DNA of 36,848 nucleotides from Actinomycetota bacterium (GTDB lineage Bacteria; Actinomycetota; Geothermincolia; Geothermincolales; RBG-13-55-18), in NCBI GenBank assembly GCA_034188985.1, contig JAXHVT010000032.1, positions 1-36,848 on the forward strand. The letters run 5' to 3'. The translations under genes were made by a program, and so were the position numbers. This document shows positions 1-4,334 of the stretch, piece by piece (the stretch's first letter is position 1; the number at the start of each line of letters is the position of its first letter). The notes beneath the pieces were generated by a model. That model did no database searches. It was given only the letters and a program-made list of their open reading frames with translations, and was not told where the DNA came from.

Positions 1-114
1 AACAACAAGATCAAGGTCATAAAGAGGGTGGCCTATGGGTATAGAGATGAGGAGTACTTCTTCCTGAAGATACGGGGAGCTTTCAGGCCGGCTACCCACA
101 CTTCTGGGAGATGA
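1..114 (+). CDS. 3' end of a DDE transposase, ISL3-family-like (partial; gene continues upstream of the window)
   Basis: Frame 1 from nt 1 reads NNKIKVIKRVAYGYRDEEYFFLKIRGAFRPATHTSGR then TGA at 112-114. The NNKIKxxKRxxYG[YF]R block matches my recollection of the conserved C-terminal segment of ISL3-family transposases. Family assignment is from memory and not searched. Confidence 0.5.
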   Translation, partial: NNKIKVIKRVAYGYRDEEYFFLKIRGAFRPATHTSGR

Positions 115-391
115 GCCATAATTGTTTATCATCTTTAAGATTGATATGTAACAGTTTCAAATCAGTTTGTACTGAATCCATGAGCGCGTCTCGAACAGCG
201 TCAATCAAAGAATTACCAATCTCGCGGTAATGGGATTCACCAGCAGTCCTTATAGAAGGTCGAAAGCCGTTACAAATATCATAATCGTGTATTCCAGTAG
301 AAGCATTGAAGTGTTCTATATAATACTTTAGCCATCGAACAAGGGTCGGAACCCTGCTGCTACCAAGAGCTAAAGAATAGACGGCAAGCAC
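92..391 (-). CDS. hypothetical 99-aa ORF; 5' end overlaps the upstream 434-aa gene by 22 nt and 3' end runs into the transposase stop region
   Basis: ORF track only. No motif recognised. It sits in the AT-rich block and overlaps the IS-like end, so it may be a gene truncated or fused by IS insertion, or it may be spurious. Confidence 0.2.
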   Translation of the reverse strand: MLAVYSLALGSSRVPTLVRWLKYYIEHFNASTGIHDYDICNGFRPSIRTAGESHYREIGNSLIDAVRDALMDSVQTDLKLLHINLKDDKQLWLISQKCG

Positions 392-1674
392 TCTTTATAC
401 CAGTAAGGTTCAACACCTGCTGACGGTTCAGTGCTAATCTTCGATGTCTTCGTTGGTGGGCGTGGACAAAAATAGGCATAAGCAAGCTGCATCCCCTTGT
501 CATGATGATCGCTTTCGAGCAACCTGACAATAGCTCTTGCAATATCCCTGGGATCAATTCTAAAGTTACCAATCTTATCATCGGGCCATTTTTTCATCTT
601 GTGGACAAGCCTTGCTAAATCAGCTGGGTCTAAAACCGTTGCGGCCTCTACAATCCCTCGCCTTACCCACTCATTGTTCGAACCAGCAATAGGCTCCAAT
701 ATATCTGCCACTTCTTTGCTGGCGATTGATACCATTCGAACAAGATAATCGATCTCTGGCCACAGGCCAGATAGAACATAACCATCAGTCTGAATCTTGC
801 TTTCGGGGGGATTAGCAAAGACACCTTGCTTTTTAAGTGCAGCTATCCAATATGGATTGTTCAACTTGGAATAAAAAGCTCTCCTCAATGATAGATTTCC
901 CAAACGAGCCAGCGCGGCGCGTACTTGTCCTTCACTTGGGTTTTTATATTTATATTCATTATTTAATACATTCGCTTGATTAATAAAATCTTGCAATTCA
1001 TCATAAACATCAAAGAAAGCCCCTAAGCGATTCCTAAGTGATGCTTCTATATTCTCAAGATGCGATAAAATTTCCCTTTCAGATGGCAAATTCCTTGAGC
1101 GTAATCCGATTGGAATTTTTCGCTTGAAGTGCACAAAGCTCATAAAATAATCACGCGCCGCTTTCCACGGCTTTACAGCTGGATCGTGAGCATCAATTCT
1201 CCCTAGCACTACAGCGGAATCGCGTTGAACTTCCCTAGTTGTTCCCTCGCTTACCGATTGAACTAACTCGCCTACTACATAAAGTAAACTTTGCGGTATA
1301 GTAACTAACTTGGGTTGCCCAATCTCTTCAACTTTATTTGCGTTCATATCTTCTGGCGGCAAACCACCAAAAGCTTCATACTCGTCAACGAGCAACTTCT
1401 GCCGTTCACGCTCTTCTTCTCTATCGCAATTAGCAGGAAGACCGTCCACATCATTTAGAGCATCCTGAATTGAATTCATCAACTCACGAAGACAGTGTCC
1501 TATCAGAGCAAATCGAGCCATTTCTTCGCCAGGCTCTGCAGGAACGGATAGCAGGTTTATCGTCCACCGATATAGGCCAGCAAGCTGAGGGTCTACATCC
1601 TGAAGCTGTTCATAAAGTGATTCCCTTTCTTTGTTCCATAGTTCAATATCTTTATCTGGTTCCATACAGACCAC
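370..1674 (-). CDS. hypothetical protein, 434 aa, second gene of the low-GC ATPase operon (candidate effector or partner)
   Basis: Long ORF in the AT-rich block, same strand as the ATPase gene and ~52 nt downstream of it. No family recognised by eye. Starts at GTG 1674 or ATG 1664. Contains R-x4-H strings (e.g. REILSH), but such strings occur by chance. Confidence 0.6.
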   Translation of the reverse strand: MVCMEPDKDIELWNKERESLYEQLQDVDPQLAGLYRWTINLLSVPAEPGEEMARFALIGHCLRELMNSIQDALNDVDGLPANCDREEERERQKLLVDEYEAFGGLPPEDMNANKVEEIGQPKLVTIPQSLLYVVGELVQSVSEGTTREVQRDSAVVLGRIDAHDPAVKPWKAARDYFMSFVHFKRKIPIGLRSRNLPSEREILSHLENIEASLRNRLGAFFDVYDELQDFINQANVLNNEYKYKNPSEGQVRAALARLGNLSLRRAFYSKLNNPYWIAALKKQGVFANPPESKIQTDGYVLSGLWPEIDYLVRMVSIASKEVADILEPIAGSNNEWVRRGIVEAATVLDPADLARLVHKMKKWPDDKIGNFRIDPRDIARAIVRLLESDHHDKGMQLAYAYFCPRPPTKTSKISTEPSAGVEPYWYKECLPSIL

Positions 1675-1726
1675 TCGTTATCTACATACATTCAGAACTT
1701 ACATATTGCGAGAGCTTGGCAGCCAC

Positions 1727-3883
1727 TTAACATCCGCTCATTTTTAGGTGATGATATTTGTCGTGTCGTTCGATGGTTCCAATTAAGAACTTAGATGACT
1801 CATGAATTTCAGAAGGATTTTTTGGTTGATTGGTTCTATGAGAATAGATATTACAGATATCCAATAGTTGGCGTAGTTTACGCTGCTCGGTATTTGATAT
1901 ATCTGCTTTCTCTTTACCAAAAAGAGCCTTGGAAATATCACCTGTATGAGCAGCAGTTGCAAAATCAACATTGACGCGAAATTTGACATATTCTTCAATG
2001 ATACGACGCATCGTGTTTGGCATATTTAAAGCATCGTCGTCGGAAATACTTGCTCCATCCATCTTTCTAAACTCATCAACTTTTTGATAAAGCCTCATGT
2101 ATGGTGTAAGTAATTTCTCTTTATTAACTGGATGAATGTTGCTAATCCCGCCATGCTTCTGGATTTCAAATAACGAAATCTTCTCGCCTTTTCGCCCGTA
2201 AGCAAGATTACAAAAATCATCCCACGAATGAGTTAGCACAAATATCTGTGCAGTCTCTTGATCTAGCATGCTGCAAATAAGATTTGTGATGTAAAACTTA
2301 TAATTGCCATCAAGACTAGATATAGGATCATCGATAACAATGAGTTTGATTGCATCTTTCAGCTTGCCAGACTTATCAATATGCATTTCGTAACAGAAAT
2401 AGATTAAAGATAGAAGATTCCGTTCCCCGTCGCTAATATCTTCAACTTTTATGCTCGGCCCATCAGTGTGGGTAATGGTGTACACCCCACCACTCAATGA
2501 GAGGTTAAAATCTATATTGAGATCTTTTAATATTGCATTTAAAAACCCTGCGAAATCAGCTAAATCTGACTTTTGCGCCAGCAAATGTTTATTCTCCAGT
2601 TCAAGTTTGATTTGTTGCTCGCGCAATTCTATAATCTGAGCGTCAGCAGCCTCAATTTCATCTATATTTTCTGTAATCGTGTTATTATTCTTGATTTCAA
2701 AACCAATTGCACCTTTTACCAATGTTTCGAGACGGTTAATTTTTTCATTTATATCCTTTGTACTCTGTGCCTTGGCGTCTTCTAATGCTTCCATTGCATC
2801 ACCAATATTTTTTATTGCATTAGGCAACATATTACTGTCAATCGTGTGTGTGATACCCATGTCCTTTATCTTCTTATCAATGTCCTCATTTATGAATATT
2901 AGAATCTGTTCCATGCTGACTGAGACGTCATCAAATTTCACTTTGCCGTCGGTGAGGCTAAGCACTTGCACATAAGTGTCTCTTTGATCAACCAACAGCT
3001 TCGCCACCTCGTAAAGTTCAAGCAGTGACTTCTTCAAAGTTTCCAGTATTTCGTTTGCCTTGTGCTTTTCATTATTTAGGTAAGCGTCCACACGCTTTCT
3101 TATTTCATCGATATCAATATCAGCACCACAAAACTCACATCGTTTCTTGCCTTTGTGAATTCCTATACCACCTTGCAGCCAGTTCACAACTTCGTACTCA
3201 GGCACATCAATGTATTCATATTTTGTTCCGAATATGCTTGCCAGGTCACCAAGTTTATTGTCATCAATTTCCGGCATTTTAGGGAACGTTATAAGGTTTA
3301 CCTGTTCACTTTCTGCAGAGAAATCGGCACTGCCAGTAATGGCATTATAGTCTTCGTTGGGAAAGTTTTTATCTGCATATTCATAATCCTTAACCCACAA
3401 ATAAATTTTTTCCTGAACGGTTTTGTTATCGGGTTTATTATTTATCTTCCTGTTCTTTCCTTTCCTACGCTTTACTATTTCTTTGATCAACTGGTCGGTC
3501 TGCTTAGTGAGGTTCTCTTTAATAACATTATGCTCGTCTATACTTTTTGTTAATTCGGCAACTTTCTTCTTGTTGACATCAACCTTATTCTCGATGTCTA
3601 CGTCTATTGCGCCAAAATTAGAAACGACACCACGAATTCCGGATCTGTCCTCCAATAGTAAGGTGCTCTCAACGTACTCGCTGTTAAAGAATCGTGCCGA
3701 ATCTTTACCGTTGATTTCCAGATACGCTTTTTTTATTCCGTGTGAAAGCGCGCTTTTTCCAGCACCATTACATCCAAATATTATGTTAGTTTGATTGAAT
3801 ATTGCGGTTTTTAAGTTGGACGAAGTTTTCCAAGATTTATAGATATGATTTTCAATATTTTTGACATACAATGCCTGACTCAA
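1727..3883 (-). CDS. SMC/ABC-type ATPase, RloC/PrrC-like (AAA_13-type) with CxxC zinc hook in a coiled-coil insertion; C-terminal ~190 aa of unknown function
   Basis: Walker A NIIFGCNGAGKSAL near the N-terminus. A ~450-aa K/E-rich coiled-coil insertion carries KKRCEFCGADID (CxxC). ABC signature ISDGERNLLSLIYF, Walker B KLIVIDDPISSLD and H-loop FVLTHS follow. TTG start with a GGGAGAGG Shine-Dalgarno ~9 nt upstream. Low-GC codon usage, unlike the rest of the window. Confidence 0.8.
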   Translation of the reverse strand: MSQALYVKNIENHIYKSWKTSSNLKTAIFNQTNIIFGCNGAGKSALSHGIKKAYLEINGKDSARFFNSEYVESTLLLEDRSGIRGVVSNFGAIDVDIENKVDVNKKKVAELTKSIDEHNVIKENLTKQTDQLIKEIVKRRKGKNRKINNKPDNKTVQEKIYLWVKDYEYADKNFPNEDYNAITGSADFSAESEQVNLITFPKMPEIDDNKLGDLASIFGTKYEYIDVPEYEVVNWLQGGIGIHKGKKRCEFCGADIDIDEIRKRVDAYLNNEKHKANEILETLKKSLLELYEVAKLLVDQRDTYVQVLSLTDGKVKFDDVSVSMEQILIFINEDIDKKIKDMGITHTIDSNMLPNAIKNIGDAMEALEDAKAQSTKDINEKINRLETLVKGAIGFEIKNNNTITENIDEIEAADAQIIELREQQIKLELENKHLLAQKSDLADFAGFLNAILKDLNIDFNLSLSGGVYTITHTDGPSIKVEDISDGERNLLSLIYFCYEMHIDKSGKLKDAIKLIVIDDPISSLDGNYKFYITNLICSMLDQETAQIFVLTHSWDDFCNLAYGRKGEKISLFEIQKHGGISNIHPVNKEKLLTPYMRLYQKVDEFRKMDGASISDDDALNMPNTMRRIIEEYVKFRVNVDFATAAHTGDISKALFGKEKADISNTEQRKLRQLLDICNIYSHRTNQPKNPSEIHESSKFLIGTIERHDKYHHLKMSGC

Positions 3884-4073
3884 AATATTCGACCTCTCCC
3901 CTGCACCCTAATGAAGCACGCCAATCCTGGATAGGTTCAGCACTACCATTGCATCTATTTTATCACGACTGCTCTGCTTTAGTCGCTTACCCTGAAAGCC
4001 CGATGCAAGTTATGGCTCTTGGCCTCAAATGCTATCGTCGTCTTGATTAACTTTCGTTCATTATCCCCAAGTC

Positions 4074-4259
4074 TTAGTATTTCCATTTTTCTCGTTCAGT
4101 CGCATCTTCGCACCAGACCAATTCGTCCCCCGTACGAGCCCTATACCTAGATGGCCGACAGCTTAAGAGATCATTGATCAGATTGGCTATATTCTTGTGA
4201 TTACGGTCGTCATCGTCTTTAGACACGTTTGACTCTATCAATCCTTGAGAGACATTCAC
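4074..4259 (-). CDS. small 61-aa ORF upstream of the ATPase gene (speculative)
   Basis: ORF track only. Lies in the AT-rich leader of the operon. No motif recognised. Confidence 0.15.
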   Translation of the reverse strand: MNVSQGLIESNVSKDDDDRNHKNIANLINDLLSCRPSRYRARTGDELVWCEDATEREKWKY

Positions 4260-4264
4260 ATAGG

Positions 4265-4334
4265 ATGGGGGTCAGGTCTCGAATATAGAGTAATTAACCA
4301 GTATATGGAATATATCTCGACAGGCTGACCCCCC
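4265..4334. terminator. inverted repeat GGGGGTCAGGTCTCGA ... TCGACAGGCTGACCCCCC with ~35-nt AT-rich loop, abutting the antiporter stop; coincides with the GC-content boundary
   Basis: Read directly: gggggtcagg at ~4267-4276 pairs with cctgacccccc at ~4324-4334. The antiporter stop codon (TAA on the minus strand) follows at 4335-4337. Confidence 0.35.

What the first reader, a model, noticed from the sequence alone, without database searches (positions are those of the whole stretch)
1727..3883. 718-aa Rad50/SMC-like ATPase with CxxC zinc hook and an unassigned C-terminal domain (RloC-like architecture)
Motif order is Walker A (GCNGAGKS, aa ~37-44), a ~450-aa Lys/Glu-rich coiled-coil insertion containing KKRCEFCGADID (aa ~245), ABC signature ISDGERNLLSLIYF (aa ~505), Walker B LIVIDDPISSLD and H-loop FVLTHS. 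That is the head / coiled-coil / zinc-hook / head layout of Rad50 and of RloC anticodon nucleases. The last ~190 aa (..LTPYMRLYQKVDEF..MPNTMRRIIEEYVKF..QRKLRQLLDICNIYSHRTNQ..) do not show the PrrC/RloC R-x3-E...H ACNase triad as I remember it. This could therefore be a different effector or sensor module on an RloC-type scaffold.
Basis: partly seen in the sequence, partly recalled or inferred. Interest (0 to 1): 0.65.

Follow-up and report, generated by a model that had tools for sequence, protein, structure and literature searches.

The report
RloC-type anticodon nuclease gene
This is an intact gene for an RloC-family defence enzyme (a Rad50-like ATPase with a zinc hook, fused to a tRNA-cutting tail) in a foreign low-GC island, and its tail is the family's standard nuclease domain, not a new module.

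Summary
The 718-aa ORF (1727..3883, minus strand) and its ATPase motifs are real. The claim that the last ~190 aa lack the PrrC/RloC nuclease triad is wrong. The protein has R626-X3-E630-X51-S681-H682, which fits the published RloC signature (Arg-X3-Glu-X36-52-His, Ser before His). These residues are conserved in at least 128 of 131 diverse relatives. Pfam AAA_13 covers residues 25-695, and authentic E. coli PrrC matches the same C-terminal part of that model. Profile-profile alignment to a PrrC family built here pairs R626/E630/N678/S681/H682 with PrrC R320/E324/N352/S355/H356 (98% probability, E 7e-14; C-domain alone E 9e-5). The modelled C-domain (pLDDT 91) has a HEPN fold, as the literature assigns to PrrC/RloC. 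The full model best matches Rad50/SMC heads. So this is a new member of a known family. Two differences stand out. The counterpart of PrrC's essential Arg349 is Asp675 and is variable in this clade. In addition, all six sampled close relatives carry a DUF2130 nuclease-family gene immediately downstream, which the window lacks. The window instead has a decayed unrelated module and an ISL3 transposase end. Interest is low to moderate.

The parts
1727..3883 (-). Complete CDS of the RloC-type protein (718 aa plus stop; TTG start)
   Evidence: ORF list and translation. It is identical to the NCBI 718-aa product P0001. Pfam AAA_13 matches at E 1.9e-64 over residues 25-695.
3752..3775 (-). Walker A / P-loop, residues 37-44 (GCNGAGKS)
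   Evidence: G42 and K43 are conserved in at least 128 of 131 representatives.
2438..3751 (-). 438-aa, mostly alpha-helical insert splitting the ABC ATPase head (residues 45-482). Long stalk helices lie at 92-141 and 352-437.
   Evidence: AlphaFold secondary structure, heptad test and Foldseek best hits to Rad50 with coiled coil.
3128..3181 (-). Zinc-hook region, residues 235-252: W235-x3-G239-x3-H243-x5-C249-x-F251-C252
   Evidence: C249, C252, W235 and G239 are present in 131 of 131 representatives, H243 in 126 and F251 in 127. The CxxC lies in a predicted hairpin between helices.
2420..2437 (-). ABC signature (C-loop), residues 483-488 (ISDGER)
   Evidence: S484 and G486 are conserved in 131 of 131 representatives and E487 in 130. 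The motif aligns to EcoPrrC LSKGE173.
2309..2344 (-). Walker B plus D-loop, residues 514-525 (LIVIDDPISSLD)
   Evidence: It aligns to EcoPrrC YVFIDDPVSSLD. D518, D519 and D525 are present in 131 of 131 representatives.
2225..2242 (-). H-loop / switch, residues 548-553 (FVLTHS)
   Evidence: H552 is present in 130 of 131 representatives. It aligns to EcoPrrC ...ITTH251.
1730..2122 (-). C-terminal all-alpha ACNase domain with a HEPN fold, residues 588-718
1994..2008 (-). R626-R627-I-I-E630: the Arg and Glu of the ACNase triad
   Evidence: Pairs with EcoPrrC R320 and E324. R626 is present in 130 and E630 in 128 of 131 representatives.
1838..1852 (-). N678-I-Y-S681-H682: the His of the ACNase triad with its conserved Asn and Ser
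   Evidence: Pairs with EcoPrrC N352, S355 and H356. N678 is present in 129, S681 in 131 and H682 in 129 of 131 representatives.
119..1674 (-). Decayed, unrelated two-gene module downstream. It is not a partner of the RloC-type gene. The 434-aa ORF at 370..1674 fuses a ~240-aa protein homologue to the first 198 aa of a 974-aa protein homologue. The match then continues out of frame to position 119.
   Evidence: No Pfam or PADLOC match.
1..114 (+). 3' end of an ISL3-family transposase gene running in from the contig edge
   Evidence: Pfam DDE_Tnp_ISL3 at E 7.2e-6 and 26.4 bits (cut-off 23), matching profile positions 217-240 of 240.
1..4300 (.). Low-GC island (about 34-46% GC, against about 58-63% for the rest of the contig), containing all of the above
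   Evidence: Composition profiles.

Best explanation
The ORF encodes a full-length member of the RloC family of anticodon nucleases (Pfam PF13166 AAA_13; COG 'wobble nucleotide-excising tRNase'; PADLOC candidate PDC-S06). Its ABC-ATPase head is split by a ~440-aa helical insert that carries an invariant W-x3-G-x3-H-x5-C-x-F-C zinc-hook motif. A ~130-aa HEPN-fold ribonuclease domain follows, bearing the PrrC/RloC catalytic triad as R626, E630 and H682.

The likely mechanism is inferred by homology to G. kaustophilus and A. baylyi RloC and is not shown here. The Rad50-like region holds the nuclease silent. Binding of linear or broken DNA, plus one round of ATP binding and hydrolysis, switches it on. 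The HEPN domain then cuts tRNA anticodon loops by metal-independent transesterification, possibly excising the wobble nucleotide. This stalls translation as an abortive-infection or DNA-damage response.

The gene was acquired horizontally. It sits in a low-GC island at the end of the contig, beside a decayed unrelated module and an ISL3 element.
For: Sequence:
- Pfam AAA_13 matches at E 1.9e-64 over residues 25-695.
- PADLOC PDC-S06 matches at E 7e-46 and the PrrC model at E 9e-7 over residues 468-704.
- The C-domain alone hits the C-terminal ends of PDC-S06 models (E 4e-5).
- JGI names homologues of 46-61% identity 'wobble nucleotide-excising tRNase'.

Definition:
- Davidov & Kaufmann 2008 define RloC by the Arg-X3-Glu-X36-52-His motif (Ser often before His), a CX2C in a coiled-coil insert, and 658-897 aa (PMC2610378).
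- This protein has R626-X3-E630-X51-S681-H682, C249xxC252 and 718 aa.

Direct comparison:
- I retrieved authentic EcoPrrC and verified it at 15 published residue positions.
- It also matches PF13166, residues 154-357 to profile positions 486-687.
- hhalign of a 131-member RloC-type profile against an 11-member PrrC profile gives probability 98.1% and E 6.9e-14 over window residues 482-704 and PrrC 168-378.
- That alignment pairs R626-R320, E630-E324, F635-F329, N678-N352, S681-S355 and H682-H356. C-domains alone give E 9.2e-5 in the same register.

Structure:
- Anantharaman et al. 2013 place the PrrC/RloC RNase domains in the HEPN superfamily (PMC3710099).
- The full model best matches Rad50, SMC heads and AriA.

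Conservation and context:
- In 131 representatives of 17-62% identity, C249 and C252 are present in 131, R626 in 130, E630 in 128 and H682 in 129.
- Relatives lie in R-M or defence islands.
- The unusual TTG start agrees with the rare start codons noted for rloC genes.
Against: - No biochemical activity is shown.
- Against a single EcoPrrC sequence, the narrow family profile aligns the C-domain only at the N..SH motif and not significantly (E 0.14). The PrrC link for the C-domain alone therefore rests on broad profiles, conserved motifs and fold.
- I could not obtain the G. kaustophilus or A. baylyi RloC sequences for a direct alignment.
- The counterpart of PrrC Arg349 is Asp675 here, and the position is basic in only 16% of the 131 representatives. 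Arg349 is the HEPN Rx6H arginine, is strictly essential in EcoPrrC, and is reported as conserved in RloC (PMC3025547).
- PrrC His295 and His315 have no invariant counterpart.
- All six sampled close relatives have a DUF2130 gene immediately downstream, which the window lacks. This copy may therefore be missing a partner.
- Coiled-coil character is statistically supported only for part of the insert.
Confidence: 0.82

Rival explanations
1. The gene is the orphaned half of a two-gene cassette: an RloC-type ATPase-RNase plus a DUF2130 PD-(D/E)XK-family nuclease, in a pairing reminiscent of Rad50-Mre11 or SbcC-SbcD. In the window the partner was lost when the region was rearranged. The remaining gene may be inactive, deregulated, or functioning differently from its relatives.
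For: - Six of six sampled members of the >=50%-identity clade have DUF2130 immediately downstream on the same strand. The gap is 0-3 nt in five of them, and the upstream neighbours differ completely.
- One 38%-identity relative has DUF2130 directly upstream.
- The window has no DUF2130 anywhere. Its downstream region is a frameshifted, IS-truncated remnant of another module.
- DUF2130 is classified in the PD-(D/E)XK superfamily (PMC3424549).
Against: - The window ORF is full length with every conserved residue intact.
- None of 80 more distant relatives in reference genomes have DUF2130 within 5 kb (control). Three other sampled relatives are also solo, so family members can stand alone.
- GkaRloC is active on its own when expressed in E. 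coli (PMC2610378).
- No functional link between the two proteins has been tested.
Confidence: 0.3
2. This is the first reader's reading: an RloC-type scaffold carrying a different, previously unassigned effector or sensor domain at its C-terminus.
For: - The C-domain alone has no significant hit to the PADLOC PrrC model or to a single PrrC sequence.
- The Arg349 counterpart is missing.
- Clade-specific invariant residues Y595, R627 and H711 exist.
Against: - The triad motif is present and conserved.
- The domain lies inside Pfam AAA_13, in the same profile region that authentic PrrC matches.
- Profile-profile alignment puts the catalytic residues in register.
- The fold is HEPN.
- The same 'PN..RR..E....F ... 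N..SH' motifs occur in proteins named 'wobble nucleotide-excising tRNase'.
Confidence: 0.03
3. It is a Rad50/SbcC-type DNA-repair ATPase or another SMC-like protein, rather than a nuclease-bearing defence protein.
For: - Best full-length structural hits are Rad50 and SMC heads.
- The PDB profile search finds Rad50 and AriA for the ATPase lobes.
- A CxxC hook is present.
Against: - Rad50 and SbcC lack any equivalent of the C-terminal ACNase domain (PMC2610378).
- No Mre11 or SbcD gene is nearby.
- The insert is far shorter than Rad50 coiled coils.
- The Pfam SMC_N match is below its cut-off (20.7 against 40 bits).
Confidence: 0.02
4. It is a PrrC orthologue, that is, an R-M-silenced tRNA-Lys anticodon nuclease.
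For: The ATPase C-lobe and ACNase domain are homologous to PrrC.
Against: - PrrC proteins are about 340-440 aa, lack the coiled-coil/CxxC insert, and always sat between type I hsd genes in the 11 cases examined.
- The window has no hsd genes.
- The protein has a 438-aa insert and no PrrC box.
Confidence: 0.01

Closest known systems
RloC (prototypes: Geobacillus kaustophilus GkaRloC and Acinetobacter baylyi ADP1 RloC; COG 'wobble nucleotide-excising tRNase'; Pfam PF13166)
   Same: - ABC-ATPase head split by a helical insert with a CxxC zinc hook.
- C-terminal ACNase domain with Arg-X3-Glu-X36-52-(Ser)His.
- Size within 658-897 aa.
- Not linked to a type I R-M locus.
- Rare start codon.
- Located in mobile or defence-type DNA.
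   Different: - Only distantly related in sequence: named 'wobble nucleotide-excising tRNase' proteins range from 61% down to 25% identity, and the nearest reference-genome relative is 39%.
- Glu-to-His spacing is 51 residues, against 40 in GkaRloC.
- The residue corresponding to PrrC Arg349 is Asp675, although Arg349 is reported as conserved in RloC.
- The close clade is paired with DUF2130, which has not been described for RloC.
- Activity, substrate and trigger are untested.
PrrC (E. coli anticodon nuclease of the prr/EcoprrI locus)
   Same: - Homologous ATPase C-lobe (signature, Walker B/D-loop, H-loop) and ACNase domain.
- R320, E324, F329, N352, S355 and H356 align with R626, E630, F635, N678, S681 and H682.
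- Both match PF13166.
   Different: - PrrC is about 396 aa with no coiled-coil or zinc-hook insert.
- PrrC has a PrrC box and a LARP motif.
- PrrC is embedded between hsdS and hsdR/M.
- PrrC has invariant H295, H315 and R349, which this protein lacks.
Rad50 / SbcC / T4 gp46
   Same: - ABC head / coiled coil / CxxC hook / head topology.
- Best structural matches for the full-length model.
   Different: - Those proteins have no C-terminal RNase domain.
- Their coiled coils are much longer.
- They have an obligatory Mre11/SbcD partner.
- In this protein an invariant His (H243) lies six residues before the CxxC.
PADLOC candidate defence system PDC-S06
   Same: It is the best defence-catalogue match (E 7e-46). 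The models cover the whole length, including the C-domain. A protein named 'wobble nucleotide-excising tRNase' hits the same models at 1e-173.
   Different: PDC-S06 is an uncharacterised single-gene candidate that appears only in genome surveys. The window protein scores far lower than canonical members.
HEPN-domain RNases (HEPN toxins, Las1, Csm6, LsoA, Cas13)
   Same: An all-alpha fold with the catalytic His at the end of a helix. A metal-independent RNase mechanism is expected.
   Different: The canonical Rx4-6H motif is not present, because positions -5 to -7 from H682 are C, I and D. An upstream R-x3-E helix supplies the Arg and Glu, as in PrrC/RloC.

Membership tests
RloC | ABC-ATPase motifs: Walker A, signature, Walker B/D-loop and H-loop | tested here: met
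   G37-S44, ISDGER 483-488, LIVIDDPISSLD 514-525 and THS 551-553. They are conserved in 131 representatives and aligned to the EcoPrrC motifs.
RloC | Coiled-coil insert with a CX2C zinc hook splitting the ATPase domain | tested here: met
   The insert is 438 aa and mostly helical. C249xxC252 is invariant in 131 of 131 representatives. The Rad50-like fold is the best match. The heptad signal is significant only for part of the stalk. The apical position of the hook was not measurable.
RloC | C-proximal Arg-X3-Glu-X36-52-His motif, with Ser often preceding His (PMC2610378) | tested here: met
   R626-X3-E630-X51-S681-H682. R626 is present in 130, E630 in 128 and H682 in 129 of 131 representatives. 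The motif is in register with EcoPrrC R320, E324 and H356.
RloC | Size of 658-897 aa | tested here: met
   718 aa.
RloC | Membership of the curated family profile (Pfam PF13166 / COG 'wobble nucleotide-excising tRNase') | tested here: met
   PF13166 scores 219 bits against a cut-off of 36, over residues 25-695. The COG name is carried by homologues of 46-61% identity. The COG profile itself was not run.
RloC | Counterpart of PrrC Arg349, which PMC3025547 reports as conserved in RloC | tested here: not met
   The aligned residue is D675. The position is basic in only 16% of 131 representatives. This residue is not part of the original RloC definition.
RloC | Anticodon-nuclease activity with wobble-nucleotide excision, activated by ATP plus linear DNA and modulated by Zn | not testable with these tools
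   This needs biochemistry. It is known only for GkaRloC and AbaRloC.
RloC | Direct sequence alignment to an experimentally characterised RloC (GkaRloC R692/E696/H737) | not tested
   The sequence could not be retrieved. The 807-aa hit P0188 is a different protein.
PrrC | About 400-aa protein without a coiled-coil or zinc-hook insert; PrrC box present | tested here: not met
   The protein is 718 aa with a 438-aa insert. The 11 PrrC proteins examined were 341-439 aa.
PrrC | Gene embedded in a type I R-M (hsd) locus | tested here: not met
   The window has no hsd genes. All 11 PrrC genes examined lie between hsdS and hsdR/M.
HEPN superfamily | All-alpha HEPN fold | tested here: met
HEPN superfamily | Rx4-6H catalytic motif | tested here: not met
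   Positions -5 to -7 from H682 are C677, I676 and D675. No Arg is conserved there in the clade. PrrC itself has R349-x6-H356.
Rad50/SbcC | Adjacent Mre11/SbcD nuclease partner and no extra C-terminal domain | tested here: not met
   No such neighbour exists, and a C-terminal HEPN domain is present.

The most novel reading that the evidence does not exclude
The window protein may belong to a distinct RloC subtype. This subtype has dispensed with the HEPN/PrrC arginine (Arg349 counterpart) and has its own invariant residues (Y595, R627, H711, and H243 in the hook). In its native form it works as a tightly coupled two-gene system with a DUF2130 PD-(D/E)XK-family nuclease. That would be a Rad50/Mre11-like pairing in which one DNA-sensing ATPase controls both a DNase partner and a built-in tRNase. 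The window copy would then be a natural 'partner-less' variant.
Probability: 0.2. Interest if true: 0.55.

Novelty: new member of a known kind. Interest (0 to 1): 0.22.

Why it matters
As it stands, this corrects an over-interpretation. The C-terminal domain is the ordinary RloC/PrrC-type HEPN anticodon nuclease, so the locus is another uncharacterised RloC-family defence gene acquired horizontally by an Actinomycetota MAG.

Modest value remains in two side results. First, this large, metagenome-rich clade keeps the Arg-Glu-His triad but not the arginine that is essential in PrrC. That is informative about which residues really form the ACNase active site, for which no experimental structure turned up in the PDB searches run here. 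Second, the close clade is consistently paired with a DUF2130 nuclease-family gene. This association is not mentioned in the literature I could search, and it could bear on the long-standing question of how RloC's Rad50-like region is coupled to DNA.

Tried and rejected
- Narrow family profile against one EcoPrrC sequence. The ATPase core was found (E 1.2e-5), but the C-domain was not significant (E 0.14). I replaced this with broad profiles on both sides.
- PDB sequence and profile searches found no solved PrrC/RloC-type C-domain, only AriA and Rad50 heads.
- A bait query made of published EcoPrrC peptides returned only short fragments. I rescued it through a frameshifted prr locus (L011) and a blastn search into E. 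coli genomes.
- P0188 (807 aa) was tested as possible GkaRloC and rejected, because the published residue numbers do not fit.
- The ~380-430-aa hits from the representative search are N-terminally truncated RloC-type fragments, not PrrC.
- The AFDB50 fold library was unavailable.
- The 434-aa downstream ORF was considered as a dedicated partner and rejected. It is a decayed, frameshifted remnant of an unrelated module.
- DUF2130 is not a general RloC partner. None of 80 distant genome loci have it, so the association is restricted to the close clade.
- No tRNA genes are present. Promoter-like and terminator-like sites do not exceed chance.
- PADLOC has no match for the 434-aa ORF or, meaningfully, for DUF2130.
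I therefore could not measure the hook-to-head distance or the clustering of R626, E630 and H682.
Full report

The window has a 718-aa ORF on the minus strand at 1727..3883. It starts with TTG, and a GGAGAGG sequence lies 9 nt upstream. NCBI annotates the identical 718-aa product as 'AAA family ATPase' in an Actinomycetota MAG. The window is that MAG's entire 36,848-bp contig.

- Walker A GCNGAGKS at residues 37-44.
- C249-E-F-C252.
- Walker B/D-loop LIVIDDPISSLD at 514-525.
- H-loop FVLTHS at 548-553.

The ABC signature ISDGER lies at 483-488, not about 505. The insert between Walker A and the signature is 438 aa and is only mildly enriched in Lys and Glu.

An AlphaFold model built on a 22-sequence family alignment has mean pLDDT 82.7. 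It predicts long helices at 92-141 and 352-437, with shorter helices between them. The CxxC lies in a small hairpin at 248-255. A simple heptad test supports coiled-coil character for helix 352-399 (p about 0.007). Support is only marginal for helices 92-141 and 401-437 (p about 0.08). Foldseek places the full model closest to Rad50 in MRN complexes, then SMC heads and AriA. So the head / helical insert with CxxC / head layout is confirmed.

**2. The C-terminal domain is not unassigned.**

That claim is wrong. 'MRRIIEEY' contains R626-x3-E630 and 'CNIYSH' contains S681-H682.

[quoted passage not shown] The definition also includes a CX2C in a coiled-coil insert and a size of 658-897 aa (PMC2610378). 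This protein has R626-X3-E630-X51-S681-H682, so all three criteria are met.

In the family alignment, P622, N623, R626, R627, E630, F635, N678, S681, H682 and H711 are invariant. This holds even against a 25%-identical Thermoanaerobacter protein that NCBI names 'Wobble nucleotide-excising tRNase'.

Pfam AAA_13 (PF13166) matches residues 25-695 (profile positions 11-703 of 713) at E 1.9e-64, so it covers the C-domain. PADLOC's best match is the candidate system PDC-S06 (E 7e-46), and its PrrC model matches residues 468-704 at E 9e-7. PDC-S06 is evidently PADLOC's RloC-like family, because the named tRNase P0047 hits it at 1e-173. The window's C-domain alone hits the C-terminal ends of those models (E 4e-5).

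**3. Direct test against an authentic anticodon nuclease.**

No solved structure matches the C-domain by sequence. I therefore recovered a verifiable reference. Published EcoPrrC peptides (PMC3025547) led, by way of a frameshifted prr locus, to an E. coli gene annotated 'anticodon nuclease' between hsdS and hsdR. Its 396-aa product carries all 15 published residue positions: K46, T47, H251, H295, H297, K299, H315, R320, N321, E324, R349, N352, S355, H356 and C386. The LARP peptide is at position 284. Ten further PrrC homologues of 30-55% identity, all inside type I R-M loci, gave a PrrC family profile. Its invariant ACNase residues are H295, H315, R320, E324, F329, R349, S355 and H356.

The narrow family profile against the single PrrC sequence found only the ATPase core (E 1.2e-5). 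It did not significantly align the C-domain (E 0.14). This is consistent with the original remark that the RloC-PrrC C-domain similarity needed 'manual adjustment'.

I then built a broad profile from 131 full-length representatives, retrieved by an exhaustive HMM search of 1.84 billion proteins with the C-domain alone. That search found 353 clusters at E <= 1e-3. Against the PrrC profile, hhalign gave probability 98.1% and E 6.9e-14. The alignment was one continuous stretch, window residues 482-704 to PrrC 168-378. The C-domains alone gave E 9.2e-5 in the same register. The pairs are:
- R626-R320
- R627-N321
- E630-E324
- F635-F329
- N678-N352
- S681-S355
- H682-H356

Authentic EcoPrrC itself passes the PF13166 threshold with residues 154-357 on profile positions 486-687. 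So the C-terminal part of that Pfam model is the ACNase domain.

**4. Fold.**

**5. What differs from the textbook enzymes.**

- The residue aligned with PrrC Arg349 is Asp675. Arg349 is the Arg of HEPN's Rx6H motif, is strictly essential in EcoPrrC, and is reported as conserved in RloC. Across the 131 representatives this position is S/T/K/N/D/A and is basic in only 16%.
- PrrC His295 and His315 have no invariant counterpart. Position 620 is His in 102 of 131 representatives but Asn in the window protein.
- The clade has its own near-invariant residues: Y595, R627 (Arg or Lys in 120 of 131) and H711.
- The hook is an extended motif, W235-x3-G239-x3-H243-x5-C249-x-F251-C252. It is conserved in at least 126 of 131 representatives.

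These points mark a divergent subgroup of the RloC family, not a different domain.

**6. Surroundings.**

Bases 1 to about 4300 are 34-46% GC, against about 58-63% for the rest of the contig. This is a horizontally acquired island cut by the contig end.

The 434-aa ORF downstream of the gene (370..1674) is not a partner. Its first half is 59% identical to a ~240-aa protein. Its second half is 61% identical to the first 198 aa of the 974-aa gene that follows that protein elsewhere. The match then continues out of frame to position 119 and stops. Bases 1-72 encode the last 24 positions of an ISL3 transposase (E 7e-6).

The rest of the window is housekeeping: a Na/H exchanger, MscS, MacB/FtsX, oxidoreductases, Band 7, a subtilase and a cellulase. 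There are no tRNA genes, no R-M genes, and no promoter or terminator signal above chance.

**7. Relatives and their contexts.**

Close relatives (50-62% identity) occur only in metagenomes. In species-representative genomes the best match is 39% identical. Relatives are scattered over Saccharibacteria, Bacteroidota, Coriobacteriia, Streptococcus and other lineages, which fits a mobile defence gene.

Relatives lie next to type ISP, MmeI or Eco57I restriction enzymes, helicases, SIR2/DUF87, DarTG and similar genes.

All six sampled members of the >=50% clade have a DUF2130 gene (PF09903; E 1e-48 to 1e-55) immediately downstream. The gap is 0-3 nt in five of them, and the upstream neighbours are unrelated from case to case. 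A 38%-identity relative has DUF2130 directly upstream. None of 80 more distant genome loci have it (control), and the window has none.

DUF2130 is classified as a PD-(D/E)XK superfamily member of unknown function (PMC3424549). I found no literature linking it to RloC. PDC-S06 itself appears only in surveys.

**8. Mechanism.**

Shown here: family membership by sequence, motif, profile and fold, and an intact ORF with every conserved residue.

Inferred from GkaRloC and AbaRloC work (PMC2610378, PMC3458546, PMC3874168): the Rad50-like region keeps the nuclease off. [quoted passage not shown] The zinc hook modulates this, and hook mutants are hyperactive. The nuclease then cuts anticodon loops, excising the wobble nucleotide in GkaRloC, and so shuts down translation during DNA damage or phage attack.

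Open questions: whether loss of the Arg349 counterpart changes chemistry or specificity, and whether this clade needs DUF2130.

**9. Verdict.**

This is a new, uncharacterised member of the known RloC family. The proposed 'novel C-terminal module' is not supported. Interest is low to moderate. It rests mainly on the side observations: the DUF2130 cassette in the close clade, and an active site lacking the PrrC/HEPN arginine.

Noticed in passing
L001:8415-9515, L003:8156-9118, L004:8139-9356, L103:7146-8381, L104:7143-8396, L105:7139-8386 (downstream); L007:4517-5848 (upstream): All six sampled close relatives (>=50% identity) of the window protein have a DUF2130 (PF09903, PD-(D/E)XK superfamily) gene immediately downstream, mostly 0-3 nt away. 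The upstream genes differ in every case, which suggests a conserved two-gene cassette. It is absent from the window and from 80 more distant genome loci. I found no literature on this pairing.
   Followed up: partly
window 119-1674 (minus strand): The annotated 431/434-aa 'hypothetical protein' is a chimera or pseudogene. A ~240-aa protein homologue is fused to the first 198 aa of a 974-aa protein homologue. A frameshifted continuation follows (370 to 119), and then the match is truncated.
   Followed up: yes
L010:6546-10641: The intact version of that module (154-aa, 239-aa and 974-aa genes with overlapping stops and starts, and no Pfam domains) lies between a GmrSD gene and a very large DEAD/UvrD helicase gene (product over 2,400 aa), near a resolvase. 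It may be an uncharacterised defence-island module.
   Followed up: no
window 1-114 (plus strand): The C-terminal end of an ISL3-family transposase runs in from the contig edge (Pfam DDE_Tnp_ISL3, E 7e-6). It probably explains both the truncation of the neighbouring module and the assembly break.
   Followed up: yes
window 1-4300 versus 4300-36848: There is a sharp GC step, from about 34-46% to about 58-63%, at about 4200-4300, just upstream of the RloC-type gene. The island is foreign DNA. A mis-assembly joining two organisms cannot be excluded from sequence alone.
   Followed up: partly
window 3128-3181 (residues 235-252): The 'zinc hook' is an extended conserved motif, W-x3-G-x3-H-x5-C-x-F-C. 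The His is present in 126 of 131 diverse relatives, so it is a possible third zinc ligand. The RloC papers I read do not mention it.
   Followed up: partly
window 1859-1861 (D675); also Y595, R627 and H711: The counterpart of PrrC's essential Arg349 (the HEPN Rx6H arginine) is Asp here and is variable in the clade. Y595, R627 and H711 are clade-specific near-invariant residues. The active-site composition may therefore differ from that of PrrC.
   Followed up: partly
L012:4761-5951: The E. coli B1 PrrC reads YYNAFTEDLFYWDND in the 'PrrC box'. The paper quotes YYNAFYEDLFYWDND, so there is a one-residue difference. All other quoted peptides and numbered residues match.
   Followed up: no
L011:862-8869: A low-coverage metagenome contig carries a classic hsdM-hsdS-prrC-hsdR locus. 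All of its genes are broken by frameshifts, which are probably sequencing errors rather than real pseudogenes.
   Followed up: no
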